Counted from the first letter of the stretch, positions 2,106-28,859 are shown. The stretch: 53,074 nucleotides of DNA from Patescibacteria group bacterium (GCA_004322205.1 SCSN01000002.1:1-53074), one strand, 5' to 3'. The notes: generated by a model from the letters alone, not told the origin. Numbers and translations: made by a program.

Positions 2106-3208
2106 ATATTATGAATAATAAATTTTTAAAAATTATGAAAAAAATTATAGCGATACTTGTTATCGTATTACTAACTGTGCCTGGTGTTGCCTTCTCGCAG
2201 GAAGTTGAAGACGAAAATGCACCCCAGACTGTTGCGGTAGAACCGCAATCAGATCTAAACTCGCCTTCAGAAACTCAAGCAGATCCAAGCTCAACGGCGG
2301 TGAGTGTTACCGTCTCACCCGATGTCCAAGCAACACAGCTCGATCTGCAGGGAAACTCTTCTTTCCAGGACAGCCTTTCTCCACAGGGCACAGCAATTGA
2401 GCAAGAGACAGCAAGCAGCTCGGACCTTGAAGGCACAGTAAATCCCCAAGCTGATGTTTCGACTGCTCCTGCCGACCAAACCTCCACCTCTACATCGTCA
2501 ACCACCCCGCCGACTGCGCCTGACATAATCCCGCTTGACTCTTCTCTTTCCGATTCTACCGGAACGCCGGATGTAGTCATTCCCATTCCGCCTGACACAA
2601 CTTCGACAACGACTAGCACCTCGACAACTCCCGACACTCTCCCGCAGGGTGAAGTACTTGGGGAAGAGAATCCGCAACCTCAAATTCTTGAATATCACGA
2701 GGAAGTGGTCAATCAGGTCCAGCCTGAACCGGAAAAGCCCATTACAGAGATTCGGGCTGAAAAACTAAAGCCCGAAAAGCGCTACACCTTCAAACTTAAA
2801 GGAGGAGTAATTGCCGCCAAAGAAAAACCCGACTGGAAGAGATCAAATGCCGAGAAGAAGGAGAGAACAAAGAGGAAACAGGCGGAGCAGACCATTGCCG
2901 CCACTCCCGCCCTGACCCCCGACGATACTCTCGGCGCCCTTGACATTTCCGGGTCCTGTAGCGATCCGTATTTCGTGATTCTTGTCTATGCCCAACCGGA
3001 AGACTATGATACCAACCCTTCTTCGTATATATTCAATAAGGCCTATCCATGCGTGAGTGGCAGCTACTCGTATTCTCTCAAAGAATTGCCGTCCACTCTT
3101 CCTTCGGGGACGTATTACCTTCTTGTTGGAGGTCAGGGTTCTGAAGGTTCGTGGAAGCCGGTCAGTGCGCTCGTTCCAATTGACATAAAAAATGAACATG
3201 GCAACTAA
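2102..3208 (+). CDS. secreted low-complexity S/T/P-rich (mucin-like) protein
   Basis: N-terminal hydrophobic anchor/signal, followed by long Ser/Thr/Pro/Gln-rich low-complexity regions and a Cys-containing C-terminal domain. The start overlaps the upstream stop by 4 nt (ATGA). Confidence 0.5.
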   Translation: MNIMNNKFLKIMKKIIAILVIVLLTVPGVAFSQEVEDENAPQTVAVEPQSDLNSPSETQADPSSTAVSVTVSPDVQATQLDLQGNSSFQDSLSPQGTAIEQETASSSDLEGTVNPQADVSTAPADQTSTSTSSTTPPTAPDIIPLDSSLSDSTGTPDVVIPIPPDTTSTTTSTSTTPDTLPQGEVLGEENPQPQILEYHEEVVNQVQPEPEKPITEIRAEKLKPEKRYTFKLKGGVIAAKEKPDWKRSNAEKKERTKRKQAEQTIAATPALTPDDTLGALDISGSCSDPYFVILVYAQPEDYDTNPSSYIFNKAYPCVSGSYSYSLKELPSTLPSGTYYLLVGGQGSEGSWKPVSALVPIDIKNEHGN

Positions 3209-16506: not shown

Positions 16507-16825
16507 TGAATTTACATCATAACAGAATTAACCTTTATTTACCTCATTTTTGTGAGAAATGCTCATTATATTTTGAATAAAGGAAAAAGTGTAATGTAGA
16601 GGACATTTATAAAGTACATTTTTATTAAGTATGATTTTACAAATGTCAAGCGATAATTGCTTTAATCTACGGGACTTTTTTAGACAAGCTTAGGAATTAT
16701 TTATTTTTTGTTTATAAAGGACATTTCTTGAAATACGTTCAAAATACTTGTGTTTTTAAATATCAGCTTGAATACACGAAACTTGACACTGGCGCTGAAA
16801 TGGGTAGGTTTTGAAACACTTCTTA

Positions 16826-18610
16826 ATGATTTATCGAGATAACAAACAGAACAGATATCTAAGAGGAGTCACTTTTTTTGCACTTTCTCTTATCGGGATA
16901 TTTTCTCTGTTTGTAGCTCTTTTAAAGATTGATGCTTCCTACGCGCTTTTGGCACGAATCGTGCACGCTGCCACGTCGTTCAACTCGGATCCGCTGGATT
17001 TTCCCACAGTTCGTGTTTCTAACTATACAGAGCACCCTGACTCAACAGAGGATTGGGCGACTTCGACAACCGCTAAGCCTGGTGATGTCATAAGCTTTAC
17101 TATCTATTACCACAATACCGGATCTGAAGATGCACAAAATGTTAAATTATCGCTTTCTGTGCCTGCCAATGATGGAATGTTAATAATTGGGTCCGGTACT
17201 CTCTGGACTGATAATGCTCCGGTGGTCAGTGGACAAGCCTCGGTGTTGCTTTCCGAAACCCAGCACCTCACCTATATTGCCGGTTCCGCCCGCTGGTATC
17301 CGAATCAAACCCAAACCAATCCAACCCCCTTTCCTTTTGGTCAGACAGGGGATGAATTTGTGACGCCCCAAGGTATAAATATCGGAATAATCCCGCCGGG
17401 CTGGACGTTGCAGGGTAGTGTGGTTGTGCGTTTCCAAGTGTCGCAGGCCGCTCCGCCACCGGTGCCGCTGCTGCCATCCGTTGATTTAAAGGCAAATAAC
17501 TCGGACGGCCCGCTTGCGATTGCACCCGGAGAAGTATTGACACTCTCTTGGTCATCAAGCTACGCCGCGCAATGTGCGTTTGGAGATCCCATTAACTCTT
17601 CTGTGGGCTTGAGTGGCCAAACAGCTTATTCTTCAGGTTATCCGGCATATCCTATCGCTGGGACGAGCACCGTTTATACCATCACCTGCAGCAATGATCA
17701 GGGCACAAGCGCATCGGATAGTGTTCAGGTTTCTTTTAGCTCTCCCTCCGTGGACATTACCGCCAATAATTTGCAGGGACCGGTCACGCTTGCGCCCAGC
17801 CAGCCTTTCACTCTTGAATGGACTTCTTCCGGCGTGATAAGACCATGTAATCTTGATATTGATGGGTTTGGCTCATCGGGTATTGAACCGGTAGGGAATA
17901 CCTCTCCAATTTATCCCGGCCACCCTTTTTATCCAGCCGTCGGTCAGTCGAAGACTTTTACTTTCTCGTGCGCGACGGCGGGCGGTGCTACTGTCTCTGA
18001 TGCAGTTGTCGTTTCAGTGTTAGTACCGCCCATAACTCTCACCGCTCAAGCGCAATCGTGCCGCGGAGTTGCCTTTTCTTGGTACTACGATGTTACGCGG
18101 GCCAGAACTTTTAAGATTCTCCGCGACGGTGTTCTCATTGCAACGCAAAATGCGACTTTTGGTAACAACTTCTTCTTTGACGGCAGTTTAAATCCGAATA
18201 CTGTCTACAGATACCAGGTTATTGGAAATGACGGCAGCACTGATTTTGTCTCGTCAAACACTGAAACCGTCACAACTCCGACCTGTCCGCCCTCTGTTGT
18301 GCCTCCAGTGGTTCCAACTGTTACTGCTGCAACTGGCAGTCAGTGCGGGGGCTCGATAAATCTTTCATGGAATGTGGTGAGCGGCGCGACTTTTTATAAA
18401 ATTTTCCGCGATGGCGGAGCTTCACCGATTTTTGTGGGAAACGTTAATACATTTCTTGATGTTGGTCTTTCTCCCGGCAGTTTTCACAACTATCAAGTTG
18501 TAGCTTCAAACAGCGCAGGCAATTCGCCCCGCTCGAATCAAGCCGCAGCTGTCGCCTCCAAACGCTTGCGTCGGAGCACCGGTTTCAGTTACTTTAACGA
18601 CTTCTCCTAG
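16826..18610 (+). CDS. giant surface repeat protein, N-terminal part (DUF11-like plus Ig/FN3-like repeats); frame breaks near 18530-18560
   Basis: Signal/anchor helix, then a DUF11-like segment (GDVISFTIYYHNTGSEDAQNVKLSLSVP), repeated about 90-aa Ig-like units (SVDLKANNSDGPLAIAPGEVLTLSWSS...) and two FN3-like units (FKILRDG...YRYQVIGNDG; FYKIFRDG...YQVVASNSAGNS). The first ATG is at 16826; a TTG at 16811 is also possible. Confidence 0.6.
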   Translation: MIYRDNKQNRYLRGVTFFALSLIGIFSLFVALLKIDASYALLARIVHAATSFNSDPLDFPTVRVSNYTEHPDSTEDWATSTTAKPGDVISFTIYYHNTGSEDAQNVKLSLSVPANDGMLIIGSGTLWTDNAPVVSGQASVLLSETQHLTYIAGSARWYPNQTQTNPTPFPFGQTGDEFVTPQGINIGIIPPGWTLQGSVVVRFQVSQAAPPPVPLLPSVDLKANNSDGPLAIAPGEVLTLSWSSSYAAQCAFGDPINSSVGLSGQTAYSSGYPAYPIAGTSTVYTITCSNDQGTSASDSVQVSFSSPSVDITANNLQGPVTLAPSQPFTLEWTSSGVIRPCNLDIDGFGSSGIEPVGNTSPIYPGHPFYPAVGQSKTFTFSCATAGGATVSDAVVVSVLVPPITLTAQAQSCRGVAFSWYYDVTRARTFKILRDGVLIATQNATFGNNFFFDGSLNPNTVYRYQVIGNDGSTDFVSSNTETVTTPTCPPSVVPPVVPTVTAATGSQCGGSINLSWNVVSGATFYKIFRDGGASPIFVGNVNTFLDVGLSPGSFHNYQVVASNSAGNSPRSNQAAAVASKRLRRSTGFSYFNDFS

Positions 18611-20657
18611 CACCATCACTGCTGGCGCTACCAGTACTCTCCTCTGGCGGGCGCTAAACGCCGTCTCTTGTTCTGCTGCCTGGACTTCTTCAACTGCGAC
18701 CCAAGGAGCGCAGAGTGTAAGCCCGGCTACCACCACGATATATATCATTTCCTGCCAAGGATCAGGTGGTGTGGGACAGGACTCCGCCACAGTTACGGTT
18801 GTACCACCGGGAGGTCCCGCCTGTTCTCCCCCGACAATCACTAGCCCGACTTTCGCAACCTCAACTGTCGGAGAGTTTTTCTCCTATACGATTACTGCAA
18901 CGTCAAGTTCTAAAAGCACAATGTCCTTTAGCGTAGGAACCTCAACACTGCCAGCCGGTTTGTCCTTTACAGACGATACCATTTCAGGGACATCTACAGT
19001 TTCAGGGACATTTTCCGTGTCCTTAATGGCAACTATGGCAACTAATGAATGCGGGACAACAACGCAAAATCTCACTATTACAATTGAGTCTCAAGATGGC
19101 GGCGGTGGTGGCGGAGAGTCCAGTGCTCCGTTTGTTTCTCTCGTTGCAAATCCAACCACGATAACTCTTGGAGCAACTTCGACTCTGTCATGGACATCTA
19201 CCGGTGCAACGGTTTGTTCGGCGGATTGGACGCAAGCTACTTCGACGTCTGGTTTTCAGGTGGTAAGTCCAGCAACTACCACTACCTACACCCTGTCGTG
19301 CAGCGGTGTGGGGGGTACTGGTCAGGCACAAGCTATCGTCACTGTAGTCCATCCGTCGAGTTCGCAATGTGTTATTGCGATTAACAGCGCTCTTTCAGCT
19401 TCAGGAAAAGTTGCGGAAACATTCGTGTATACTCTGACTGCCACAACCACTGGTACCTCCACTCCACCTCTTGCAATTGCCACCTCTTCGCTTCCAGAAG
19501 GTCTATCTGTTTCCGGGAACGTGATATCAGGCATACCGACAGAGTCCGGCACGTTTCAAATCTCTCTTTCAGCGGAGAACAACTGTGGGTCGGACAGCGA
19601 GACTTTGATAATCACTATTGTCCCCGCCGATGACGGCGGAGCCTCTCCGCCGTCATCGGGCGGTACAGCTGGTGGCGGAGGCGGCGGTGGCGGCGGAGGG
19701 GGCGGGGGGACACGCCGGCGAATGCCACCTCTTGCTGTTGCTGCCGTCGCGCCGGAGGTCCTTGGCGCGCAAATAAGCTGCGAATACCTACGTGACTACT
19801 TGCGCATCGATTGGCAAAACGACCCGACAGAGGTTTTGAAGCTCCAGATTTTTTTGAGAGAGCTTGAAAGTTTTTCGGGTCTTGCGCTGACAGGAATTTT
19901 TGACAAAGCGACATTTGACGCTGTCGGCGATTTCCAGGAGCGCTATTTCGGCGACATTTTGGAGCCATGGGGTCACGAGCGTCGCACCGGCTTTGTTTAC
20001 ATTCTCACCAAAAAGAAAATTAACGAAATTGTCTGCAATAAAACATTTCCGCTCACTGGAGTCCAAGAGGAGGAAATTCGACAGTTTCGAGCTTTCCTTG
20101 AGAGTCTAAAACAAAGAGGGATCGGGATCTCAGGGGCTGCGGGAGAAGGGGTAGCAGAGCCAGACGCAGTCTCAACCACTGGAGAAGGAACTGGAACAGA
20201 AAACTTGCCAATTGGAGGAATTGTGAATGGATCTAACTTCGGAGCACTCGCTGGAGCGATTCTCGCCGGGCCAAAAGGCGTTAAAGAAACTGTTCTTGCT
20301 CTAGGGTTCTTTCTTCTCACCATTCTTCTTCTTTATCTGGCAGTAGGAAAACTCACGAAGACGAAGAGTGGGCAAGAGAGACCAGGGTCTGACAGAGATT
20401 TGAAAGTAAGAAAACTTTCTTACTTTAATGGCGGTCTTCTTCTTGTGATTGTGGCCTTTCTTCTAATCCGATTCTATTTAATTATTCTTCCGCTTCTGGG
20501 ACTACTCGTGTTTTTGGTTTTCACTCTCCTTTGGCGGCTGGCGGCAAGAGGAAGCGCGGTAGAGAAGGCAATTTCAGATCCGCAAAGTGGTGTTGCTGGT
20601 CGACCGGGAGCAGTGATTCCAAGAGAGCGATCAATCCTCAAGATGTCAGACAAGTAA
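18504..20657 (+). CDS. giant surface repeat protein, C-terminal part (Ig-like repeats, poly-Gly, PG-binding-like domain, C-terminal TM helices)
   Basis: Frame 0 is open from 18504 and already encodes the same repeat type upstream of the tabulated ATG at 18771 (APVSVTLTTSPSTITAGATSTLLW...CSAAWT... versus later PFVSLVANPTTITLGATSTLSWT...CSADWT). It contains G13 and G8 runs, the stretch VLKLQIFLRELESFSGLALTGIFDKATFDAVGDFQERYFG (peptidoglycan-binding-1-like) and two or three C-terminal TM helices. Confidence 0.55.
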   Translation, partial: LQTAQAIRPARIKPQLSPPNACVGAPVSVTLTTSPSTITAGATSTLLWRALNAVSCSAAWTSSTATQGAQSVSPATTTIYIISCQGSGGVGQDSATVTVVPPGGPACSPPTITSPTFATSTVGEFFSYTITATSSSKSTMSFSVGTSTLPAGLSFTDDTISGTSTVSGTFSVSLMATMATNECGTTTQNLTITIESQDGGGGGGESSAPFVSLVANPTTITLGATSTLSWTSTGATVCSADWTQATSTSGFQVVSPATTTTYTLSCSGVGGTGQAQAIVTVVHPSSSQCVIAINSALSASGKVAETFVYTLTATTTGTSTPPLAIATSSLPEGLSVSGNVISGIPTESGTFQISLSAENNCGSDSETLIITIVPADDGGASPPSSGGTAGGGGGGGGGGGGGTRRRMPPLAVAAVAPEVLGAQISCEYLRDYLRIDWQNDPTEVLKLQIFLRELESFSGLALTGIFDKATFDAVGDFQERYFGDILEPWGHERRTGFVYILTKKKINEIVCNKTFPLTGVQEEEIRQFRAFLESLKQRGIGISGAAGEGVAEPDAVSTTGEGTGTENLPIGGIVNGSNFGALAGAILAGPKGVKETVLALGFFLLTILLLYLAVGKLTKTKSGQERPGSDRDLKVRKLSYFNGGLLLVIVAFLLIRFYLIILPLLGLLVFLVFTLLWRLAARGSAVEKAISDPQSGVAGRPGAVIPRERSILKMSDK

Positions 20658-21827
20658 GTGCTCGATTTTTGCACCGCCACTCGCTCTGATCCTCCTTTTT
20701 TCTTTGAGTATGGTTGGTTGCGAACGAATTTTTATGTAAGCGGCGAGGGCGATCATGATGCTGTTGTCAGTTGAAAGCTCAATTGGAGGGATGTGAAGCG
20801 ATAGTGGGCGGAACTGCCGGATGAGTTTTTGAAATTTTCTTCGAAGTTCTCTGTTGGCAATCACTCCTCCAGCGACAATCAAGCTTTTTGGTTTGAAGTG
20901 AAGGATGGCGCGTCTGGTTTTCTCGACGAGAACATCCGCTACAGCGTCCTCAAAAGCACGCGCAATTTTAATTTTGTCGGCTCTTGAAAGTTTTTTGCCC
21001 TTGATTCGGTAGAGGACCGCTGTCTTGAGTCCCGCGAAAGAAAAATCAAAGTCATTTGAATGAATCATGGGGCGGGGAAGTATCCACCTTGGGTCTGCTT
21101 GCCGATGGCGCTTCCGCCCCGCTTCCGCGAGGTGGGCGATCTGCGGTCCGCCGGGGTAGGAGAGGCCGAGCATCCGCGCCACTTTATCGTATGCTTCGCC
21201 GACCGCATCGTCTCTGGTTTGACCGACGCGCCGGTAATGAAGCGAGTGCGGGGAGTAAATTAGTTCGGTGTGACCGCCAGAGATAAGAAGAGCAAGGGCG
21301 GGGTATCTAAACTCGGTTTTCGAATTTTTCCTTATAAGCACAGAAAGAAAATGAGCTTCCATGTGGTTTACGGGAATAACCGACAAATTCCAGACAAGAC
21401 CCAGAGCGCGGGCAAAATTTACCCCGACCCAAAGCGCCGGCTCAAGCCCCGGTCCATAGGTGACGGCAACAGCATTCACTGACGGTTTTTTAATTTTCGG
21501 AATGAATTCAACGAACTGCGCTAACAATTCCGGCTCTCTTTCAAGTATTTTCTCTACTCCTCTTTCAACTTTCAACTTTTCATTTTTAACTTTTAACTTC
21601 AAAAAATTTGATTCCGTTAAGACTATTTTCAAAAGTGGTATCAGATTTTTTGCATGCTCGCGCTTGGCAAGGTTGGGATACACTCCGCCGTATTTCCTGT
21701 GGAGGCGAGCTTGAGAATAGAGCGCGTTTCCGAGCACTTTGAAAGAAGGTTTTTTAACTGACCCCCTCGCCTCCAGAATAGTCACTGCTGTTTCGTCACA
21801 GCTTGTTTCTATGCTCAAAATTTTCAT
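20646..21827 (-). CDS. tsaD: tRNA N6-adenosine threonylcarbamoyltransferase TsaD (Kae1/Gcp family)
   Basis: MKILSIETSCDETAVTILEA at the N-terminus, a metal-binding HMEAH motif and GVIANRELR near the C-terminus. It carries a ~50-aa insertion relative to E. coli TsaD. Confidence 0.8.
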   Translation of the reverse strand: MKILSIETSCDETAVTILEARGSVKKPSFKVLGNALYSQARLHRKYGGVYPNLAKREHAKNLIPLLKIVLTESNFLKLKVKNEKLKVERGVEKILEREPELLAQFVEFIPKIKKPSVNAVAVTYGPGLEPALWVGVNFARALGLVWNLSVIPVNHMEAHFLSVLIRKNSKTEFRYPALALLISGGHTELIYSPHSLHYRRVGQTRDDAVGEAYDKVARMLGLSYPGGPQIAHLAEAGRKRHRQADPRWILPRPMIHSNDFDFSFAGLKTAVLYRIKGKKLSRADKIKIARAFEDAVADVLVEKTRRAILHFKPKSLIVAGGVIANRELRRKFQKLIRQFRPLSLHIPPIELSTDNSIMIALAAYIKIRSQPTILKEKRRIRASGGAKIEHLLV

Positions 21828-21850
21828 AAGAAGAGAATCAAGAGCCGCTT

Positions 21851-22324
21851 TTATTTACTAGCAATCTCTAGGAACCGCTCAAGGAAAGGAATTTGCGCAG
21901 GGTTAATTTTCCTTCTGGCTGTTTCGACATCAAAAAATTCAGCTCTGTCAATTTCTGGAAATTCCTGAAACTTCCCCGATTTCGGCGGCCATTCCAGTGT
22001 GAAGGTGTTACTTCTAACTTTTAGCAAATCCAAATCTGCCTTGAGAGCCCATGCATATACCACCTTTCCGCTTTTTTGCTCGATTGATCCAAGGGGTAGA
22101 GGAGTTTCGCTTGGCAGTTGAATGCCGAGTTCTTCTTCAAATTCTCTTTTGGCTGCCTCAAGCAAATCTTCGTTTTCTTCTATCTCTCCTTTGGGAATGC
22201 CCCAAGCGCCGTCGTCTTTATTTTTCCAAAACGGCCCGCCCGGATAGACAAGCAGGCATTCAAGCTCACCAGCGCGCTCTCGATACAGAAGAATTCCCGA
22301 ACTTGTCTTTCGTTTTTGCACCAA
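21851..22324 (-). CDS. NUDIX hydrolase
   Basis: Nudix box GEIEENEDLLEAAKREFEEELG (Gx5Ex7REUxEExGU). Confidence 0.85.
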   Translation of the reverse strand: MVQKRKTSSGILLYRERAGELECLLVYPGGPFWKNKDDGAWGIPKGEIEENEDLLEAAKREFEEELGIQLPSETPLPLGSIEQKSGKVVYAWALKADLDLLKVRSNTFTLEWPPKSGKFQEFPEIDRAEFFDVETARRKINPAQIPFLERFLEIASK

Positions 22325-22396
22325 TGACCCTACCGGGAATCGAACCCGGATTCCGAGCTTGAAAAGCTCGTGTCCTGACCATTAGACGATAGGGCC
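22325..22396 (-). tRNA. tRNA-Glu (anticodon TTC)
   Basis: Reverse complement ggcccta-tc-gtct-aatggtcag-gac...cgagc-ttTTCaa-gctcg...ccggg-ttcgatt-cccgg-tagggtc-a. It abuts the NUDIX gene start. Confidence 0.85.
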
Positions 22397-22512
22397 TAAA
22401 ACATTTTTATAAACAAAAATGTTCGGCCGAACGATTTGCTAGGCAAATTGTTTTAGGCCTTCAGAATATATCACTTTTTGAAAAATTATCAAAAATGATG
22501 TAGATTAGTGAA

Positions 22513-22595
22513 GGAAGGGTGTTCCGAATGGTAAGGAGCCGCTCTCGAAAAGCGGTGCCCGCAAGGGCGTGTGGGTTCAAGTCCCACCCCTTCCG
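22513..22595 (+). tRNA. tRNA-Ser (anticodon CGA)
   Basis: Acceptor ggaaggg/cccttcc, anticodon stem ccgct/agcgg with loop ctCGAaa, a long variable arm (tgcccgcaagggcg) and T arm gtggg-ttcaagt-cccac. Confidence 0.8.
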
Positions 22596-22676
22596 CCGTT
22601 TGGCATCTGTGGGTATTCCAATTCTCAATTTCTTAAGAAATTGAGAATTGGAAATGAGAGGTGTTAAAGTAATGGT

Positions 22677-22946
22677 ATGAAAAAATATCGTGAACTTGAG
22701 TTGATAGCAAAAGGCTTTGCGAATCACAGGAGAATTCAGGTTCTTGAGCTTTTGTCGCGCGAAACGGATGTATCCTTAGTGGAAATAGCAGACAGACTGA
22801 AAATGAACGTTAAAACTGCTTCTGATCACGTTCGTCGGATGGTACTTGGTGGTCTGGTGTGGAAGAAGACAGCGGGGAACATGGTTTACCACACGTTATC
22901 TCCGCGCGGAAAATCTATTCTAGTTTTCTTAAGAAAACTAGAATAG
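22677..22946 (+). CDS. ArsR/SmtB-family winged-helix transcriptional regulator
   Basis: 89 aa; HRRIQVLELLSRETDVSLVEIADRLKMNVKTASDHVRRMVLGGLV matches the ArsR HTH pattern. Confidence 0.7.
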   Translation: MKKYRELELIAKGFANHRRIQVLELLSRETDVSLVEIADRLKMNVKTASDHVRRMVLGGLVWKKTAGNMVYHTLSPRGKSILVFLRKLE

Positions 22947-23022
22947 ATTCGGTGTGATGAGGTGGTGTGATGGCAGAAGCCTTTATTTTGTTTGGGGTTT
23001 GGGTAAAATGTATCTACACGAT

Positions 23023-23097
23023 GCGCGCTTAGCTCAGTGGTAGAGCGTCTCGTTGACGTCGAGAAGGTCATAGGTTCAATCCCTATAGCGCGTACCA
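23023..23097 (+). tRNA. tRNA-Val (anticodon GAC)
   Basis: gcgcgct-ta-gctc-agtggta-gagc, anticodon stem tctcg/cgaga with loop ttGACgt, T arm atagg-ttcaatc-cctat, acceptor agcgcgt-a, and an encoded CCA. Confidence 0.9.
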
Positions 23098-23180
23098 CGT
23101 TGGAAAAGTCAATGCCTCACCCCGCCTCGGGCGGGGCTCGGCGACCAAATCGTACGGACTTTTCGGGGCAAAAAGAAATT
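23098..23180 (+). repeat. tRNA-downstream conserved element, copy 2
   Basis: GGAAAAGTCAATG...CCCCGCC-tcg-GGCGGGG-CTCGGCGACCAAATCGTA...TTTTCGGGGCAAAAAG parallels the element after tRNA-Phe motif by motif. Confidence 0.5.
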
Positions 23181-23447
23181 CCCGATTCCGTAAAATATGG
23201 TTCGAGCCGATGTTTTTAACGGGTTCTTTTGCGGTTTTGATTCGTGCGGCTCCGCCTTTCCAGATTTTCGCAGGGGGCCTTCCTCGCCGCCGCAAGCGGC
23301 GAAAGCGGTTCGGACTAATTCAAGTATTCTGCCCAGAATCTGACTTTCACATTATCCCATCTCATTTTACGCTATACATTTATGTAGTAGTATGCGCATG
23401 GAAACACACCTCGTAAATTCCCAGAACATCTGACGGAGAGTGATTAT

Positions 23448-24290
23448 GTGTGGAGACTGCCACTTTGTCTCGCCGCTGTTCTCGCTATTGCTCCGGCGTC
23501 AACTTCCCAGGGACAAGAACCGCAATTCAGAGGTTTGCCAATGTTCAATCCGCGTTTCACGAAGGAGCAAATAATCCGAGCTGTAAAGGACAAATGCCCC
23601 AAACCAATATTCAACGTGGACTGCGAGGAATTCATCGCGCACAGGTTCAAGCAAGGGTCCCGGACGCCGGGCTACAAGGCACTCAAGACCTTGTGGCTTT
23701 CTTGGAGAAGAGCACGGAGAAGCCCTGCCCACAGAGGGAGTGGGTATTTGCCCGGATTGCGGTCTACCCGGATGGCAGGCGTATCATTCAGAGTTGACTG
23801 GAAGCGGCCCTGTAACAAGGATGAGACATTTCTCTTTGACGAGCACGATCGACCATTCATGTCTGAGGATTGCGGTAATGTGCCTTTTCCTCTGACTCCG
23901 ATATCTCTTGTCGCGCAGGAACCCCCCGTCCCGCCGACGGCAGCCCAAGCTCCGGAGGCAGAGCCAACTACGTCAAAAGTAGATACGGTCAGAGTAGTTG
24001 TGACCAAGAACTCTGTTACAGTAAAAAGTCCTTTTGGCCAGAGAAATGTCCGAGATTCTCTCGAAATGTCTTTAACGAACCATCTAGTCGTGAAAGTTAT
24101 CGTAAAGGACATAAAGAGAGGACCGAACCGGTTGGAGCGAGTCGGCTTCTTTACGGCCGGAGCTGTTGTCGGTTATGTCTTTGGACACGAGGGCGGAGCA
24201 TGTCAGACCCTTGGCTCTCCGGTGAATCCTCCAAACGAAAGAGCCAGGATTATTATTCCGCTGGCACGAATAGTACTCCGACTCCCGTAA
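23448..24290 (+). CDS. secreted hypothetical protein (signal peptide), in a GC-richer tRNA-proximal segment
   Basis: MWRLPLCLAAVLAIAPASTSQG is a signal peptide. No recognisable domain. A possible terminator sits at 24312-24345. Confidence 0.45.
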   Translation: MWRLPLCLAAVLAIAPASTSQGQEPQFRGLPMFNPRFTKEQIIRAVKDKCPKPIFNVDCEEFIAHRFKQGSRTPGYKALKTLWLSWRRARRSPAHRGSGYLPGLRSTRMAGVSFRVDWKRPCNKDETFLFDEHDRPFMSEDCGNVPFPLTPISLVAQEPPVPPTAAQAPEAEPTTSKVDTVRVVVTKNSVTVKSPFGQRNVRDSLEMSLTNHLVVKVIVKDIKRGPNRLERVGFFTAGAVVGYVFGHEGGACQTLGSPVNPPNERARIIIPLARIVLRLP

Positions 24291-24476
24291 TTTACCCCCT
24301 CGTTCTAGCATGGGCGGCGCCGTCGGGCCCCGCCTTTTTCTTTTAGGTGGCCTTGGGCGATTCTTCTTGTGCGGGGTTGACCGATGCACGACGGCGGGTA
24401 TACTGGTCTGAGAAAGAGAACTTACTTGACACGTTGTAGATGATAGTGTATAAATGCAGCTGTCAAACTATTATTA

Positions 24477-27400
24477 TTGCAACACCTAAAAAGCCAGCAA
24501 AATATGATTATTTTTCTCGGACGGGAGAAGCGATTGTATGCTAAATCTCTCCTTGTCCCTCTGCTTGTTGTTACTCTAGCGCTTCAGACACTCGGGTTTT
24601 TTACCTATATTCGTGAAGCAGCGGCTGCGCCAGTGACGATATTTTCCGACGGATTTGAGAACACTCCGCAATTTACCAATCCTTTGTGGGAGGATGCTGA
24701 TCCCCTTTGGAATGTAAGTTCCAGCAATGCTCACAGCGGAACGAGAAAAGCCTTTGTGATTGGCAACACTGGAGGCTTTGACGATATGTTAAGGCAGGAT
24801 GAGTCAACTGTGGGGTATCAAAATATAGTCTTAACCTATTGGTTTCGGGCTGATGACTTGGAATCCAGCCAAAACGATAAAGTTGATGTGCAGTGGTCTC
24901 CTGACGCCGGTGTTACCTGGAACACACTCTTTTCTATAGACGATAATTGGGACGCCGATCCCAATCTGTGGATACAGCAAACTCATTCACTGCCGGCGGG
25001 AGCGAACAACAATCCCAATTTTAGGTTTCGCTTCAAAGCCAAGTTAAACACCCCCAACGACAAGGTTTATCTTGACGATGTGAGCCTAGAAGGTGATGTT
25101 GTGCCGGCAAACCTCACTGTAAACAAGGTTGTTGTCAACAACAACGGCGGCGCAAAAACAGTCTCTGATTTTCCTCTCTTTGTGAATGGCCAGCCGGTAG
25201 TTAGCGCTCAGGCGAACCAATTTGCGCCCGGACAATACACGGTTTCCGAAACAAATCAGATGGGCTACACCGCGACCATTGGCGGTGACTGTGATGCACA
25301 AGGCAATGTCACTCTTAGCTCCGGTGATAACAAAATCTGCACCGTAACAAACGATGACGTCGCGCCGATACTCACGGTTGTCAAAGTTGTTGATAACGGA
25401 AACAACCCGCATCCGAAACAGGTTTCCGATTTTCTGCTCTTTGTGGACGGACTGCCGGTTGTAAGCGGCCTGGCAACCACGACTCCTGCTGGAACTCACA
25501 CTGTTACCGAGACCACTCATGAACTCTATACTTCTTCCTACAGCCCCGAGTGTCCGAGCGGTCAGGCAACTCTCTTGCCGGGAGACAACGTTACCTGCAC
25601 GGTAACCAACACTTACACCCCACCGGCATCTACCAGCACCGGGGCGATTCTCATTACCAAGTTTCTCTGCCCCGGGGGGACAGAATTAAGCCGTGACGCC
25701 AACGGTCCGGCTGCAGACGGTGCAATAACTCCGCCTGAAAGTTGCATACCTGATCCCGGTGAGCACTTCGGTTATATTCATGAACCCAACAGACCAAACG
25801 GCGATTTCTCCGGACCGTTTCCTGGTCTCGACGACAGCCAACTCTTCACCGTCGCTGGCCAAACTGACGCCAACGGGCATTTGGAAATTAGAAGATTGTC
25901 ACGACTCGGCCGCTATGATCTTGCTGAAGTGCGGGAAAGCGGAGAGAGGATTCCTCAAGGTCCTGTTTTAGGTTTCTTCTGTGTTGGGGACACCAATTCC
26001 GGCAGCGACAACTATGACTCAACATTTTTCCCCGAGCGGGGCGCAATGTTCTGCGCAGTCTACAATGAAGGCAGGGTAGAAGCCCCGCCCGAAGACGACG
26101 AGTGCAATCCGACGGAAGATTCGGTGGTAAGTGACAGCAATACAATTGTCCTTGAAGCAAGTAGCAGCCCGGCGGCGGAACTCTCTTTCATTCATCCCGC
26201 TTGGAGTGCCACGGTGGGAAGCCCCGACGCTCGCTGGATTTGGGAAATCGACGGAGTCGCCAATCCAACCACTGATGAGGAAAAGACATTTGTTCGGGCC
26301 TTTAATCTCATTGGTGATCCAACCGGCGGCAGCCTTCGTCTTGCCTCGGACAACTCGTATGAGGCGCGGCTTAACGGGCAGCCGGTCGGCTCCGATCTCT
26401 CGGAGAACAACTTCTCCTCTTCTGATGAATGGGATGTTGGCTCAATTCTGCGCACCGGCGCCAATGAACTAATCATCAAAGTGAAAAACTGGGCGCTTCC
26501 CGAAGGAACGCCTCAAACCAATCCGGCCGGCCTTCTCTATCGTCTGCGCTGGACCGGCAGGCAGTGCGGAGGTGAGGAAGAACCGCCGAGAGAAGACCCA
26601 GGAACTTCGATGATCTTCATCCGGAAATATATTGACGGCGCGAGGGCGACCATAACGAGCGCGCTGGAAAGGCTTTTTAAAGTGCTGGTGGTTGGCGGGC
26701 CAAACGGTGACCTTTTGCTTTCACCGGAGAATCAATATCAAAATCAGAGCACTGAAATACTAAATTTCCAAAATCACTGGGAAATGCAGGAAGAGACGAC
26801 CTTTCTTAATGGTGAGAGCAATGTTATTCCAGCAGGTGGTGAATGCAGTCAGGGAAAATTTCGTCTGGTTGGCTATACCTTCGGAGATAGCTGGGACGAA
26901 GCCCAATCTTCTGCTGGAACATCGACAACTGATGTCATCCTAAACAGTATTAGCAGCGACAAATATATTATCGTCTGGAACGAAGTGTGTCCTGATGATG
27001 AAGACAATGGAGGAGGCGGCGGAGGCGGTCCGACCACGGGGGAGTTGATCGTGACAAAAATCGTGGAGAACGGCGACAACCCCACGCCTAAAAGCATTTC
27101 AGATTTTTCTCTTTTCGTGTTCTCGACTTCAACTGGCACAACAACTCTCACCTCGAGCGCAACTTCAACGCTCTCGGCAGGTGATTATCAGGTTTCTGAA
27201 ACGATTGATCCCGACTATGACGCTGTTATCGGCGGAGATTGCAGCTCGAGCGGCAATGTGACAGTTGTTGCGGGTCAAACAAAAACCTGCACCATCACAA
27301 ACACCTACGCTCCGGCGATCGGCGGCAACCCTGAAGACGGCGGAGGCAACGGTGACGGAAGTGCTGACTCAAGCGTCAGCGGAGCTTCAACCGGAGGTGG

Positions 27401-27704
27401 CGGTGGTGGTGGGGGCTCGCACCGGAGATTTCCGCCGCCTCCTGCCGAAGAAGTGCTTGGCGCATTCTCTGTTGTTTTACCTGAACTCGGCGGTTCTGCT
27501 GGAGAAGTACTCGGAGCTTCCGGCGGGCTTCCGCAGGAGGTAATTGAAGAAACTGATGAAACGGAGCAAGTGATTCCGGAACTCGCGGCCGTCGAGGAAG
27601 CAGCCGGGAATCTCGGATTTAACAAATCTATTCTGCTCTGGATCATTCTTCTCCTCGTTCTTATCTTTATCATTTACAGGATTTTTAGACCAAGAAAGGA
27701 CTGA
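24477..27704 (+). CDS. giant secreted surface protein with tandem prealbumin-fold (SpaA/Cna-B-like) repeat domains, poly-Gly tracts and a C-terminal TM anchor
   Basis: N-terminal TM/signal. Three repeats of the type VVKVVDNGNNPHPKQVSDFLLFVDGLPVVSG...YTVTET...GY..S...CPSGQATLLPGDNVTCTVTNTY (also at 25090 and 27050). It has G7/G9 runs and the C-terminus ILLWIILLLVLIFIIYRIFRPRKD. Confidence 0.7.
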   Translation: MQHLKSQQNMIIFLGREKRLYAKSLLVPLLVVTLALQTLGFFTYIREAAAAPVTIFSDGFENTPQFTNPLWEDADPLWNVSSSNAHSGTRKAFVIGNTGGFDDMLRQDESTVGYQNIVLTYWFRADDLESSQNDKVDVQWSPDAGVTWNTLFSIDDNWDADPNLWIQQTHSLPAGANNNPNFRFRFKAKLNTPNDKVYLDDVSLEGDVVPANLTVNKVVVNNNGGAKTVSDFPLFVNGQPVVSAQANQFAPGQYTVSETNQMGYTATIGGDCDAQGNVTLSSGDNKICTVTNDDVAPILTVVKVVDNGNNPHPKQVSDFLLFVDGLPVVSGLATTTPAGTHTVTETTHELYTSSYSPECPSGQATLLPGDNVTCTVTNTYTPPASTSTGAILITKFLCPGGTELSRDANGPAADGAITPPESCIPDPGEHFGYIHEPNRPNGDFSGPFPGLDDSQLFTVAGQTDANGHLEIRRLSRLGRYDLAEVRESGERIPQGPVLGFFCVGDTNSGSDNYDSTFFPERGAMFCAVYNEGRVEAPPEDDECNPTEDSVVSDSNTIVLEASSSPAAELSFIHPAWSATVGSPDARWIWEIDGVANPTTDEEKTFVRAFNLIGDPTGGSLRLASDNSYEARLNGQPVGSDLSENNFSSSDEWDVGSILRTGANELIIKVKNWALPEGTPQTNPAGLLYRLRWTGRQCGGEEEPPREDPGTSMIFIRKYIDGARATITSALERLFKVLVVGGPNGDLLLSPENQYQNQSTEILNFQNHWEMQEETTFLNGESNVIPAGGECSQGKFRLVGYTFGDSWDEAQSSAGTSTTDVILNSISSDKYIIVWNEVCPDDEDNGGGGGGGPTTGELIVTKIVENGDNPTPKSISDFSLFVFSTSTGTTTLTSSATSTLSAGDYQVSETIDPDYDAVIGGDCSSSGNVTVVAGQTKTCTITNTYAPAIGGNPEDGGGNGDGSADSSVSGASTGGGGGGGGSHRRFPPPPAEEVLGAFSVVLPELGGSAGEVLGASGGLPQEVIEETDETEQVIPELAAVEEAAGNLGFNKSILLWIILLLVLIFIIYRIFRPRKD

Positions 27705-27726
27705 CCTGTGTTAAAAAGTAAGGGAA

Positions 27727-27759
27727 CAAAAAGTGCCCCACCAGTCGGGGCACTTTTTG
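27727..27759 (+). terminator. rho-independent terminator
   Basis: aaaaagtgcccc-accagtc-ggggcactttttg. Confidence 0.75.
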
Positions 27760-27833
27760 TATGGAAAATCCCCATAATTTGTCCAACTCAAGTTTCTTGA
27801 ATATAAGTGTAAATCGTGATATAATATAGGAAA

Positions 27834-28859
27834 GTGCATACACAACTGAAAGATAAGAAACATTTGAAAAAGTATTTCATTCCAAATCGCGACAACGACT
27901 ACAAACCACACATTTTGCGGGAAACTTCTGTTGCGGTAATTGCCTTTATTGCGGTGGTTGTGTTTTTTGGTGGCGTTCTCCATAGCGTTGTTCTCACTAA
28001 GACGGATCTTTTAAGCGCCGTCATTCCAAAGATTCTCGCCGACTTGGCAAACAGCGATCGGTTCTCAAGCAATCTTGACGCTCTTCAAGTTAGTTCCCTG
28101 CTCGAAGAAGCGGCCCGGCGGAAAGCAGAAGATATGGCGGCCAAGAGTTACTTCGCTCACGACAGTCCCGACGGAAAGACGCCTTGGCATTGGTTTGGCG
28201 AAGTCGGCTACAACTTTAGCTATGCCGGCGAAAATTTAGCGGTCAATTTTACCGATTCCGAAGCAGTCAATGCCGCCTGGATGGCTTCGCCTGCCCACCG
28301 CGCCAATATCTTAAACAGCACCTTTACAGAAATTGGAATAGCAACAGCTAAAGGGATATACAAGGGGCAGGAGACGATTTTTGTAGTGCAGATGTTCGGC
28401 AAACCCCGTTTCGCGGGGCAGCTTGCGTCTCTGCAAACGTTCCAAGGCGCAACAGTAACCACTATTCCCGCTCCTGCAAGCTCTGCAGGAACCGCTGCGG
28501 CACCAGAAACTAAGCCGCCAGAAACTGCGCCACGATCTGTCCTCGGAGAGGCGGGAGGAGCCCCGTCTGCTGACGAAACAGTGGCTCTAGCGCAAAACTC
28601 TCCCCTGGGAGAGGAGCGGTTGCCGGAGCCGCAGGGAAATCCCACCGAGCGTCTTCTTACCAATCCTTCACAAATCATTCGTTTTCTTTACGGTACCCTA
28701 TTTGCGCTGGTTGTAATCTCGCTTATTCTTATGATTTTCATCGAGGTTCGCAAACAGCACCCTCTTCACATTTTCTACGGCCTAGCTCTTCTTGCACTTA
28801 TTATCGGCCTGTTCTTTGCTTACAAAACATTTATTATTGATAGAGTCATTATTTTGTAA
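27834..28859 (+). CDS. CAP/SCP (PR-1-like) domain protein, membrane-anchored at both ends
   Basis: AAKSYFAHDSPDGKTPWHWFGEVGYNFSYAGENLAVNF...AWMASPAHRANIL is the CAP domain signature (HxxxxxGENla; W..S..H..N.L). It has an N-terminal TM helix, an Ala/Pro-rich linker and a C-terminal TM helix. Confidence 0.7.
   Translation: MHTQLKDKKHLKKYFIPNRDNDYKPHILRETSVAVIAFIAVVVFFGGVLHSVVLTKTDLLSAVIPKILADLANSDRFSSNLDALQVSSLLEEAARRKAEDMAAKSYFAHDSPDGKTPWHWFGEVGYNFSYAGENLAVNFTDSEAVNAAWMASPAHRANILNSTFTEIGIATAKGIYKGQETIFVVQMFGKPRFAGQLASLQTFQGATVTTIPAPASSAGTAAAPETKPPETAPRSVLGEAGGAPSADETVALAQNSPLGEERLPEPQGNPTERLLTNPSQIIRFLYGTLFALVVISLILMIFIEVRKQHPLHIFYGLALLALIIGLFFAYKTFIIDRVIIL

What the first reader, a model, noticed from the sequence alone, without database searches (positions are those of the whole stretch)
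19660..27704. Shared C-terminal module in the two largest surface proteins: poly-Gly, RR(M/F)PP, (P/E)EVLGA, then hydrophobic anchor
Protein 18771-20657 has GGGGGGGGGGGGGTRRRMPPLAVAAVAPEVLGAQ. Protein 24477-27704 has GGGGGGGGSHRRFPPPPAEEVLGAF, then GEVLGAS, then ILLWIILLLVLIFIIYRIFRPRKD. Gly8-13, a di-Arg, a Pro-rich stretch and EVLGA occur in the same order in two otherwise different proteins, and each is followed by TM helices. This suggests a conserved processing, sorting or anchoring signal, an analogue of the sortase/exosortase tripartite signals, specific to this lineage. At the DNA level the Gly runs are GGN homopolymer-like tracts (19669-19710, 27007-27030, 27392-27415) that could also mediate slippage.
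Basis: seen in the sequence. Interest (0 to 1): 0.6.

Follow-up and report, generated by a model that had tools for sequence, protein, structure and literature searches.

The report
Stalk motif before surface-protein anchors
The shared poly-Gly / Arg-Arg / Pro / EVLGA stretch is real and widespread in Patescibacteria (ultrasmall, mostly uncultured bacteria), but it is a stalk segment just outside the anchor of surface proteins, in relatives directly in front of ordinary sortase LPxTG signals, and not a new kind of sorting signal.

Summary
Both proteins carry poly-Gly, a basic pair, Pro residues and EVLGA in that order, followed by membrane helices.

The module is neither private to these two proteins nor a product of recent paralogy. 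About half of 77 relatives of protein 1 have x[VI]LG[A/E] just before a peptidoglycan-binding-like domain. Among 150 protein 2 homologues found through their repeat domains, about 26 of 33 with a sortase-type tail have [VI]LG 0-12 residues upstream of the LPxTG-like pentapeptide (about 0.1 expected). Every such gene whose neighbourhood I examined, at eight places, lies within about 1 kb of a sortase gene.

Protein 2 is the positional orthologue of such sortase substrates. Its tail reads LPELG and LPQEV where relatives read LPNTG. The sortase gene that relatives encode just downstream is missing at the syntenic site.

So the motif is an upstream part of an extended anchoring region and can be combined with three anchor types. 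It is not an autonomous analogue of a sortase or exosortase signal. What the VLGA core does is unresolved: a sortase exosite, a cleavage site or a wall contact. The Gly runs use mixed codons, so slippage is unlikely. Interest is moderate, as a new variant of a known kind.

The parts
16811..18610 (+). N-terminal part of the protein 1 gene: signal anchor, DUF11-type and fn3-like repeats
   Evidence: ORF and Pfam. The protein 1 frame is open from 18504 and encodes another Ig-like repeat upstream of the listed GTG start. Relatives have a single gene of 883-2007 codons at this position.
18504..20657 (+). Protein 1 reading frame (listed ORF 18771-20657): He_PIG Ig domains, stalk module, peptidoglycan-binding-like domain, membrane helices
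   Evidence: Homologues. 230 confirmed loci among the GTDB (genome taxonomy database) species representatives.
19671..19709 (+). Gly13 run of protein 1, encoded by mixed GGN codons
   Evidence: AlphaFold pLDDT is below 50, so it is predicted disordered.
19710..19730 (+). Basic and Pro segment TRRRMPP of protein 1
   Evidence: Relatives have GG(R/H)R(R/H) or SSSSRR at the same place.
19752..19769 (+). PEVLGA core motif of protein 1
   Evidence: Consensus G-E-[VI]-L-G-A-[TS] in alignment A1. Present in 34 of 77 family members.
19779..20114 (+). Peptidoglycan-binding-like helical domain. Cys337-Cys422 span 19779-20036; the last helix ends near 20114.
   Evidence: Pfam PG_binding_1 at 22.7 bits against a cut-off of 23. 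AlphaFold pLDDT above 90. Best Foldseek matches are the peptidoglycan-binding domains of CtpB, SleB and a phage endolysin. Both Cys are invariant in A1.
20289..20546 (+). Membrane-spanning segments of protein 1 (20289-20345 and 20430-20546), separated by a basic loop
   Evidence: Read from the translation. Conserved in homologues.
24477..27704 (+). Protein 2: signal anchor, three SpaA_2 prealbumin-like domains, stalk module, C-terminal membrane helix
   Evidence: Positional orthologue of sortase substrates in L003, L004, L010 and L209.
27393..27443 (+). Gly8 run (27393-27416) and SHRRFPPPP (27417-27443) of protein 2
27447..27491 (+). First EEVLGA (27447-27464), followed four residues later by LPELG (27477-27491)
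   Evidence: Resembles GEVLGAFTG-LPNTG of L010.
27501..27542 (+). Second GEVLGA (27501-27518), followed three residues later by LPQEV (27528-27542), at the position of the sortase pentapeptide in relatives
   Evidence: Alignments A3 and A4 place LPQEV in the LPNTG/LPNAG column.
27543..27701 (+). Acidic linker (27543-27608), membrane helix (27630-27686) and basic tail RPRKD (27687-27701)
   Evidence: The same tail class (VLG, acidic linker, helix, basic tail) occurs in 10 of 27 helix-only homologues.
27705..27833 (.). 130-base gap between protein 2 and the CAP-domain gene. Relatives encode a small CAP/YkwD protein and a sortase here.
   Evidence: tblastn with three sortases finds L003 and L004 but nothing in the window. 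Gene orders. The window CAP protein is 61% identical to the L004 gene that follows the sortase.
28533..28550 (+). RSVLGE in the linker of the CAP-domain membrane protein (gene 27834-28859)
   Evidence: The L209 orthologue has NLVLGT in the same linker.
2648..2665 (+). GEVLGE in secreted protein 2102-3208, at the border between a Ser/Thr/Pro-rich half and a C-terminal domain
   Evidence: A single case with no orthologues examined.

Best explanation
The feature is an anchor-proximal stalk cassette of Patescibacteria surface proteins. It consists of a disordered Gly run, a short basic and often Pro-containing segment, and one or two copies of a short hydrophobic core, x[VI]LG[A/E].

Shown:
- The cassette sits directly outside whichever device holds the protein on the cell. 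The three devices seen are an LPxTG-type sortase signal, a peptidoglycan-binding-like domain with membrane helices (protein 1), and an acidic linker with one C-terminal membrane helix (protein 2).
- In relatives the core lies 0-12 residues (most often 4) in front of the sortase pentapeptide, and a class-F-like sortase gene is next door.
- Protein 2 occupies the chromosomal position of such a substrate. It reads LPELG and LPQEV where relatives read LPNTG, and the neighbouring sortase gene is absent.

Inferred:
- Protein 2 is now held by its membrane helix instead of being linked to the wall.
- Protein 1 is held by its helices and by non-covalent wall binding.
- The Gly run is a flexible spacer across the wall. 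The basic segment and VLGA core form a short recognition or contact element for the envelope.
- In LPxTG proteins the core most likely acts as an upstream extension (exosite) of the sortase recognition site. It has been kept for a second, sortase-independent contact or processing role in the other two contexts.
For: Protein 1 family:
- C-terminal homologues share poly-Gly, (R/H)R(R/H) and GE[VI]LGA[TS] before C.YL.DYL, while their N-terminal domains differ.
- 230 confirmed loci in Patescibacteria species representatives.

Protein 2 homologues and relatives:
- L003, L004, L010 and P0034-P0046 show the core just upstream of LPNTG, LPNAG or FPTTG, followed by a helix and a basic tail.
- The 150 homologues were chosen by an exhaustive search through their repeat domains, not their tails. 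The automatic count was 19 of 26 pentapeptide tails with [VI]LG within 14 residues upstream. After I moved 7 misfiled tails by hand it is about 26 of 33. Expected is about 0.1, from a body rate of 2.9e-4 per residue.
- A separate scan of all fetched proteins found 37 tails with the motif 0-12 residues (mode 4) upstream of a pentapeptide.
- 10 of 27 helix-only tails carry the motif (0.7 expected). 6 of 7 tails ending in a peptidoglycan-binding-like domain carry it.

Sortase:
- A sortase gene lies near every VLG-LPxTG gene examined: L081, L082-84, L085, L208, L209, L210 and L003, L004. The distance is within about 100 bases at five places, about 550 bases on the opposite strand at L085, and about 650 bases beyond one intervening gene at L003, L004 and L209.
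- The four sortases scanned (L081, L082, L085, L004) best match NCBIfam class F.

Synteny and loss:
- Gene order is conserved, and the sortase and small CAP genes are missing in the window.
- LPQEV aligns to the LPNTG column.
- At L210 an LPxTG-type protein with the same cassette occupies the protein 1 position, so anchors are interchangeable.

Structure:
- AlphaFold predicts the Gly and Arg part as disordered. The VLGA part is extended at a mean pLDDT of about 55. The following domain has a peptidoglycan-binding fold.
Against: - No experiment or structure shows that any sortase, or anything else, contacts the VLGA core. The association is positional only.
- An exosite role cannot explain why the core is conserved in the protein 1 family, which never has a pentapeptide. 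It also cannot explain the cores in the CAP-protein linker and in protein 2102-3208.
- About a fifth of pentapeptide tails lack the core. About half of the protein 1 family carries other linkers such as GNGPIVGS..PQVAGAS.
- Only 53 kb of the source genome is visible, so a sortase could be encoded elsewhere.
- The library behind one search carries no taxonomy, so the lineage range of the motif is not established. L207 and L208 have 65-68% G+C, against 35-53% for the other loci measured.
Confidence: 0.6

Rival explanations
1. The x[VI]LG[A/E] core is a cleavage site for an envelope protease. The protease would release or mature the outer passenger part from whatever anchor holds it, and tandem copies would give redundant sites.
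For: - The core always marks a border. It lies between passenger and anchor in all three anchor types. It lies in the CAP-protein linker, conserved in L209. It lies between the low-complexity half and the C-terminal domain of protein 2102-3208.
- It sits in predicted disordered, accessible sequence.
- Tandem copies are frequent.
- The neighbouring basic segment is shared between the two proteins of one genome in 3 of 7 genomes although their codons differ. That would fit co-evolution with one enzyme.
- A PrsW-family protease gene (13574-14278) and a signal peptidase I gene (36990-37601) are in the window.
Against: - No protease co-varies with the motif. The PrsW link is only conserved housekeeping gene order (60 of 80 loci).
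- An independent cleavage site does not need the tight spacing of 0-6 residues to LPxTG or to the domain Cys.
- Cutting four residues before the wall link would undo anchoring.
- The co-variation test is weak (p about 0.04 with hand-picked segments).
Confidence: 0.2
2. One reading: the module is an autonomous, lineage-specific sorting signal with its own dedicated enzyme, working like sortase, exosortase or rhombosortase signals.
For: - It is conserved, lies near the C-terminus, and is followed by hydrophobic helices and, in protein 2, a basic tail.
- It persists in proteins without a pentapeptide and at a locus where the sortase gene is gone.
Against: - It coexists with ordinary LPxTG signals and their sortases in the same tails.
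- Its distance to the helix ranges from about 20 to about 190 residues and can include a folded domain.
- Some carriers end in a peptidoglycan-binding-like domain with no helix at all.
- There are no hits to curated sorting-domain models, and no candidate dedicated enzyme co-occurs in the neighbourhoods examined.
Confidence: 0.1
3. The module has no function of its own. It is a low-complexity linker plus the inherited edge of a shuffled anchor cassette, kept by descent.
For: - Poly-Gly length, the basic segment and even the core vary or are missing in many family members.
- Anchors are exchanged between loci, so a shared junction sequence could reflect common ancestry of the cassettes.
- AlphaFold sees no confident structure.
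Against: A four- to six-residue core that stays constant while its surroundings diverge points to purifying selection. This holds across proteins with unrelated passengers and three anchor types. Enrichment is over 200-fold next to pentapeptides, and synonymous sites have diverged.
Confidence: 0.07
4. The Gly tracts are slippage-prone repeats that vary protein length or phase, or the two modules are similar through recent duplication or gene conversion.
For: The Gly run length differs among homologues, from 4 to about 28 residues.
Against: - Gly runs use all four GGN codons. At most four identical codons occur in a row in runs of up to 24. The longest G homopolymer in the window tracts is six bases.
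- The two window modules, and those of L003, L010 and L029, differ at most synonymous positions.
- Proteins 1 and 2 share no other similarity.
Confidence: 0.03

Closest known systems
LPXTG cell wall sorting signal of sortase substrates (pentapeptide, hydrophobic segment, basic tail), here with class-F-like sortases
   Same: - Relatives of protein 2 end in [LF]P.[TA]G, a hydrophobic segment and Lys/Arg, and lie next to a sortase gene.
- Protein 2 keeps the hydrophobic segment and the basic tail.
- Reviews describe class F enzymes as recognising LPXTG (PMC8225981).
   Different: - The x[VI]LG[A/E] core upstream of the pentapeptide is not part of the described signal. It was not mentioned in the passages I checked in three papers, and none of five literature searches turned up a description of it.
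- Proteins 1 and 2 themselves have no usable pentapeptide.
- No sortase gene is visible in the window.
PG_binding_1 (PF01471) peptidoglycan-binding domains, as in SleB, CtpB and phage endolysins
   Same: The domain after EVLGA in protein 1 scores 22.7 bits against a cut-off of 23. Its confident AlphaFold model matches these domains best: SleB N-terminal domain with TM-score 0.81 on the target and 2.4 A rmsd.
   Different: - It falls just below the Pfam threshold.
- It has a conserved Cys pair and an extra helix.
- It is followed by membrane helices and is not attached to a lytic enzyme.
Wall-spanning Pro/Gly-rich regions upstream of LPXTG in Gram-positive surface proteins (from general knowledge, not tested here)
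   Same: A disordered, Gly- or Pro-rich spacer between the displayed domains and the anchor.
   Different: Those regions are compositionally biased but carry no conserved short core such as x[VI]LG[A/E]. From memory, classical substrates such as protein A and M protein lack it.
Exosortase, archaeosortase and rhombosortase C-terminal signals (PEP-CTERM, PGF-CTERM, GlyGly-CTERM)
   Same: A short conserved motif near a C-terminal helix and basic residues, restricted to certain lineages.
   Different: - In those signals the motif abuts the helix and the unit lies at the extreme C-terminus.
- Here the spacing is variable and the motif precedes other anchoring devices.
- No NCBIfam model matched.

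Membership tests
LPXTG-type sortase sorting signal | Pentapeptide LPXTG or an accepted variant (Thr, Ala or Ser at position 4; Gly, Ala or Asn at position 5) | tested here: not met
   Protein 2 has LPELG (27477-27491) and LPQEV (27528-27542) in the column where relatives have LPNTG, LPNAG or LPDTG. Protein 1 has none.
LPXTG-type sortase sorting signal | Hydrophobic segment and then basic residues at the extreme C-terminus, shortly after the pentapeptide | tested here: inconclusive
   Protein 2 has a helix at 27630-27686 and RPRKD at its end, but 29 residues of acidic linker intervene. In protein 1 the helices come about 170 residues later, behind a folded domain, and are not terminal.
LPXTG-type sortase sorting signal | A sortase encoded in the genome, often next to the substrate gene | tested here: not met
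   tblastn with three neighbouring-type sortases gives no hit in the 53-kb window. L003 and L004 are hit. The syntenic slot 27705-27833 is empty. The rest of the genome is not visible.
LPXTG-type sortase sorting signal | Match to curated anchor models (Pfam PF00746, NCBIfam TIGR01167) | tested here: not met
   The protein 2 tail gives no hit even at E up to 10. Tails of relatives give only weak, sub-threshold PF00746 hits of 11-18 bits against a cut-off of 20. There are no NCBIfam hits.
Exosortase / archaeosortase / rhombosortase C-terminal sorting domains | Signature motif abutting a C-terminal helix and basic cluster, with a match to a curated NCBIfam sorting-domain model | tested here: not met
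   No NCBIfam sorting-domain hit for protein 1 or 2. The spacing between motif and helix is 37 residues in one and about 170 in the other.
PG_binding_1 domain (protein 1, residues 337-448) | Sequence match above the Pfam gathering score | tested here: inconclusive
   22.7 bits against a cut-off of 23, E = 1.1e-4. Two homologues (P0004, P0019) carry a precomputed PF01471 hit.
PG_binding_1 domain (protein 1, residues 337-448) | Helical bundle fold of peptidoglycan-binding domains | tested here: met
   AlphaFold pLDDT above 90 over the domain. The top Foldseek PDB matches are the peptidoglycan-binding domains of CtpB, SleB (TM-score 0.81 on the target), the AP3 endolysin and SleC. E-values are only 0.07-3.
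Anchor-proximal x[VI]LG[A/E] cassette of Patescibacteria surface proteins (defined here) | Core x[VI]LG[A/E] in a disordered, Gly/Ser-rich stretch directly N-terminal to an anchoring device of a secreted protein | tested here: met
   Proteins 1 and 2. Recurrence.
Contingency (slippage) tract | Long perfect repeat of one to a few bases, or of one codon | tested here: not met
   Mixed GGN codons, with at most four identical codons in a row in any of the local Gly runs.

The most novel reading that the evidence does not exclude
x[VI]LG[A/E], together with the adjacent genome-specific basic segment, is a second recognition code of the Patescibacteria envelope. It would be read by an enzyme or receptor other than the catalytic groove of sortase, for example a shedding protease or a wall-attachment factor. 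That would explain why it is kept in front of three unrelated anchors, and why the two carriers in one genome share idiosyncratic strings (RR[MF]PP here, SSSSRR in L003, SG[ST]RHGI in L010) despite different codons.
Probability: 0.25. Interest if true: 0.7.

Novelty: new variant of a known kind. Interest (0 to 1): 0.5.

Why it matters
Patescibacteria live attached to other cells, and their large surface proteins are prime candidates for host contact. How those proteins are held on or released from the envelope is almost unstudied.

A short, strongly enriched motif next to the sortase site gives three things:
- a simple sequence handle for finding displayed proteins in these genomes;
- a testable extension of sortase substrate recognition for class-F-like enzymes;
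- a natural example of one stalk cassette combined with covalent, non-covalent and membrane anchors, including an apparent switch from wall-linked to membrane-held in this genome.

If the core proves to be read by a separate enzyme, it would be a new processing step in a major uncultured phylum.

Tried and rejected
- **Literature.** A search for the peptide strings (VLGARR, EVLGA and others) returned only unrelated matches. Searches combining sortase or LPXTG with Patescibacteria or CPR (candidate phyla radiation, another name for the group) found no description of the motif.
- **Motif-only profile.** The tail profile A3 gave only 11 hits at E up to 10.
- **Metagenome scan with whole protein 2.** Patterns matched, but none was a relative.
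- **Metagenome DNA pattern (poly-Gly, gap, E[VI]LGA).** Only 2 of 38 in-frame matches were real; the rest were chance hits, mostly in open frames with G+C-rich, antisense-like translations.
- **First sortase regular expression.** It missed the local NLITC-type enzymes. It was replaced by tblastn.
- **Cluster look-up for taxonomy.** Only one of ten proteins gave a taxon, and it was Patescibacteria.
- **Intragenome similarity of modules.** 2 of 120 permutations reached the observed score with five genomes. With seven genomes it was 213 of 5040. I keep this as a lead only, because the segments were hand-picked.
- **Rejected ideas.** Recent paralogy or gene conversion (codons differ) and slippage. 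A functional link to the PrsW protease also lacks support: the shared order is conserved housekeeping synteny, with a tRNA synthetase gene in between.


Full report
**1. What is in the window**

The window is a chromosomal stretch of a Patescibacteria-type genome. It carries MurJ, LepA, a class I tRNA synthetase, TsaD, FtsZ, FtsA, signal peptidase I, a PrsW-family protease and eight tRNA genes. The closest related loci are all from Paceibacteria, Zambryskibacteria, Minisyncoccia and similar metagenome-assembled genomes.

- Protein 1 (ORF 18771-20657) reads G13-TRRRMPP-LAVAAVA-PEVLGA at 19671-19769.
- Protein 2 (24477-27704) reads G8-SHRRFPPPP-A-EEVLGA at 27393-27464, then GEVLGA at 27501-27518, an acidic linker, a hydrophobic helix at 27630-27686 and RPRKD.
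- Of four VLGA strings in long open frames of the window, three are in these modules.

Two corrections are needed.
- The listed protein 1 ORF is only the C-terminal part of a gene. Its frame is open from 18504 and encodes a further Ig-like repeat there. ORF 16811-18610 supplies the signal anchor. Relatives have one gene of 883-2007 codons in this position. So there is a frame shift, or a sequencing error, near 18545-18560.
- In protein 1, EVLGA is followed three residues later by a folded domain and not by a helix.

**2. The domain after EVLGA in protein 1**

Pfam gives PG_binding_1 at 22.7 bits, against a cut-off of 23.

An AlphaFold model built on 16 homologues is confident (pLDDT above 90) from Cys337 onwards. 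The Gly run and the Arg/Pro segment are below 50. The block containing EVLGA averages about 55 and is extended.

The best Foldseek matches in the PDB are the peptidoglycan-binding domains of CtpB, SleB (TM-score 0.81 on the target, 2.4 A), a phage endolysin and SleC. E-values are weak. Two Cys residues bracketing the domain are invariant.

Protein 1 is therefore built as: passenger Ig domains, stalk module, wall-binding domain, membrane helices.

**3. The module is widespread in the protein 1 family**

A search with the protein 1 C-terminus found 23 proteins. Their N-terminal domains differ (He_PIG, DUF5011, F5/8 type C). Nearly all read poly-Gly, (R/H)R(R/H), three to ten residues, (G/P)(E/Q)[VI]LG[AVTE], then two or three residues before C.YL.DYL.

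A scan of one genome per species found 230 confirmed loci. In the 80 fetched, I recognised 77 family members.
- 58 have a Gly run of four or more residues upstream of the domain.
- 34 have [VIL]LG just before the Cys.
- 24 have a basic pair.
- Other members carry a different linker, GNGPIVGS[YF]GG...PQVAGAS.

The gene sits in a conserved position: after Hsp20-like, PrsW and a tRNA synthetase gene (60-62 of 80 loci) and before TsaD (74 of 80).

**4. The same module precedes real sortase signals**

In the related loci, a second large protein a few kilobases downstream ends in sequences such as these:
- L003: GGGGGGSSSSRRQNPPLVLGASTENPGEVLGATVG-LPNTG, then a helix and KKRV.
- L004: GEVLGATSELPG-LPNAG.
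- L010: GEVLGAFTG-LPNTG.

Homologues of the protein 2 C-terminus include PPGQVLGAT...LPRTG and PPGQVLGAAVPG-VPNTG.

A tail profile found small proteins of 120-145 residues that are little more than a signal peptide, a Gly/Ser-rich stretch, SSRR, GQVLGAS...GEVLGAT, then FPTTG, FPNAG or LPNTG, a helix and a basic tail.

An unbiased sample came from an exhaustive search with whole protein 2. It gave 5339 hits at E up to 0.001. The best 150 were selected through the SpaA_2 repeats and not through their tails.
- The automatic classification found 26 tails with a sortase-like pentapeptide, helix and basic tail. 19 of them have [VI]LG within 14 residues upstream.
- Seven further pentapeptide tails had been filed as helix-only, because the helix detector started inside the pentapeptide. 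All seven carry the motif. Reassigning them by hand gives about 26 of 33.
- The rate in the bodies of the same proteins predicts about 0.1.
- A separate scan of all fetched proteins found 37 tails with the motif 0-12 residues upstream of a pentapeptide, most often 4.
- Of 27 tails with a helix but no pentapeptide, 10 have [VI]LG[AEDQ] followed by an acidic linker. This is the class to which protein 2 belongs (0.7 expected).
- Of 7 tails ending in a peptidoglycan-binding-like domain without a helix, 6 have one or two copies just before the Cys.

**5. Sortase genes are next door in relatives but missing here**

Every VLG-LPxTG gene whose neighbourhood I examined has a sortase gene within about 1 kb. 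These are L081, L082-L084, L085, L208, L209 and L210 and L003 and L004.

The four sortases I scanned (from L081, L082, L085 and L004) score best against the NCBIfam class F model, at 116-127 bits. That is below its cut-off of 166. Class F enzymes are described as recognising LPXTG (PMC8225981). More than half of CPR genomes are reported to have a sortase (PMC6744442).

Gene order compares as follows.
- L004 and L209, and L003 as far as its locus reaches (it ends inside the sortase gene): protein-1-family gene, TsaD, several genes, large VLG-LPxTG protein, small CAP/YkwD protein, sortase, large CAP-domain membrane protein. In L209 a pyridine nucleotide-disulphide oxidoreductase gene follows.
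- Window: protein 1, TsaD, several genes, protein 2, large CAP protein (61% identical to the L004 gene after the sortase), ORF 28862-29755, oxidoreductase.

Only 130 bases separate protein 2 from the CAP gene. tblastn with three sortases finds nothing in the window.

In alignments of the tails, LPQEV of protein 2 falls in the LPNTG column, and the first copy is followed by LPELG. Pfam's anchor model gives weak hits to relatives' tails and none to protein 2.

The simplest reading is that protein 2 descends from a sortase substrate. It has lost both the Thr-Gly of its pentapeptide and the adjacent sortase, and it is now retained by its C-terminal helix. A sortase elsewhere in the genome cannot be excluded.

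At L210 the reverse arrangement occurs. A VLG-FPNTG protein with poly-Gly and SSSSRRR, followed by a sortase, occupies the protein 1 position. So anchors are exchanged on a common stalk.

**6. What the parts probably do**

Shown: position, order, enrichment, predicted disorder and gene neighbourhood.

Inferred:
- The Gly run is a flexible spacer.
- The VLGA core, with the basic segment, is a short recognition or contact element at the border between passenger and anchor.

Its tight spacing to LPxTG suggests an upstream extension of the sortase site. That is my preferred reading for the LPxTG proteins.

That reading alone does not explain three things:
- conservation in the protein 1 family, which has no pentapeptide;
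- the core in the linker of the CAP membrane protein (RSVLGE at 28533-28550; NLVLGT in the L209 orthologue);
- GEVLGE in the secreted protein 2102-3208.

A cleavage or shedding site, or a wall contact, would cover all contexts and remains a serious rival.

One lead points to a shared reader. In three of seven genomes the two carriers share idiosyncratic strings next to the core: RR[MF]PP here, GGGGGGSSSSRR in L003, SG[ST]RHGI in L010. Their codons differ at synonymous sites. The permutation test is weak: 2 of 120 with five genomes, 213 of 5040 with seven, on hand-chosen segments.

**7. Rejected ideas**

- **Slippage.** Gly runs use all four codons and never have more than four identical codons in a row.
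- **Recent paralogy or conversion.** The codons differ, and there is no similarity beyond the module.
- **Autonomous sorting signal.** The module coexists with ordinary signals, its spacing is variable, and no curated model matches.

**8. Novelty and limits**

Sortase signals, peptidoglycan-binding anchors and Gly/Pro-rich wall spacers are all known. The conserved x[VI]LG[A/E] core in front of them was not described in anything I could find. No Pfam or NCBIfam model covers it. I rate it a new variant of a known kind.

Limits:
- There is no experimental evidence.
- There is no taxonomy for the 150 homologues. One of ten checked is named Patescibacteria. Two carriers lie on contigs of 65-68% G+C: L207, a weak example with its VLG about 30 residues from LPRTG and glycine reductase genes on the contig, and L208.
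- Only 53 kb of the source genome is visible.
- The attempts to survey metagenomes by motif failed.

Noticed in passing
window 16811-20657 (junction near 18545-18560): The protein 1 gene appears split by a frame shift. ORF 16811-18610 (signal anchor, DUF11 and fn3-like repeats) ends at 18610. The protein 1 frame is already open from 18504 and encodes another Ig-like repeat. Relatives have one long gene here. This is either a pseudogene or an assembly error.
   Followed up: partly
window 27705-27833, compared with L003 16682-17737, L004 18439-19676, L209 13605-14856: Relatives encode a small CAP/YkwD protein and a class-F-like sortase between the protein 2 orthologue and the large CAP-domain gene. 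Both genes are absent at this site in the window.
   Followed up: yes
window 28533-28550 (gene 27834-28859); L209 14965-16014: The CAP-domain membrane protein has RSVLGE in the linker before its C-terminal helices. Its L209 orthologue has NLVLGT in the same linker. This is a fourth protein family with the core motif.
   Followed up: partly
window 2648-2665 (gene 2102-3208): GEVLGE sits at the border between a long Ser/Thr/Pro-rich half and a Cys-containing C-terminal domain of a secreted protein with no Pfam match. No anchor follows it.
   Followed up: no
L037, L038, L039, L042, L046, L051, L055, L057, L059, L063, L065, L075 (protein 1 family members): Many family members replace the RR...VLGA linker with a different conserved string, poly-Gly then GNGPIVGS[YF]GG, often followed by PQVAGAS before the domain Cys. 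This may be a second linker type of unknown meaning.
   Followed up: no
P0037-P0046; L081 10001-10387, L082 282-698, L085 3820-4239: Small sortase-adjacent proteins (120-145 residues) have a conserved mature N-terminus (A)SE[VI]TG[TD]LSS. Otherwise they contain only Gly/Ser-rich sequence, VLGA copies and the sorting signal. The one I checked, P0044, has no Lys in its mature part. They may be disordered wall-anchored or polymerised proteins.
   Followed up: no
L208 9370-10101: The sortase-family gene next to P0140 reads TLTLQTS where the catalytic TLxTC Cys is expected. The contig has 65% G+C, which is unusual if it is a Patescibacterium. Possibly an inactive sortase homologue.
   Followed up: no
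L210 6387-23375: In this genome a VLG-FPNTG protein (P0164) and a sortase occupy the protein 1 position after Hsp20, PrsW and the tRNA synthetase. One intervening gene later come type IV pilus genes (T2SSE, T2SSF, N_methyl pilins) and a second poly-Gly-SRR-GEVLGAQ-VPNTG protein (21612-23375).
   Followed up: partly
window 23448-24290; L003 11637-12560; L004 13015-13872; L010 15336-16319: A secreted protein with no Pfam or NCBIfam match (the window copy was scanned) is conserved just upstream of the protein 2 orthologues. Near its C-terminus it shares the string (G)PVNPPN.
   Followed up: no
window 19098-19115 and 27009-27029: Shorter Gly runs (G6, G7) also join folded domains inside proteins 1 and 2. 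Poly-Gly is therefore a general inter-domain linker in these proteins and not only part of the anchor module.
   Followed up: no
window 13574-14278 and 60 of 80 related loci: A PrsW-family intramembrane protease gene keeps a fixed position two genes upstream of the protein 1 family gene, with a tRNA synthetase gene between them. This is probably plain synteny.
   Followed up: partly
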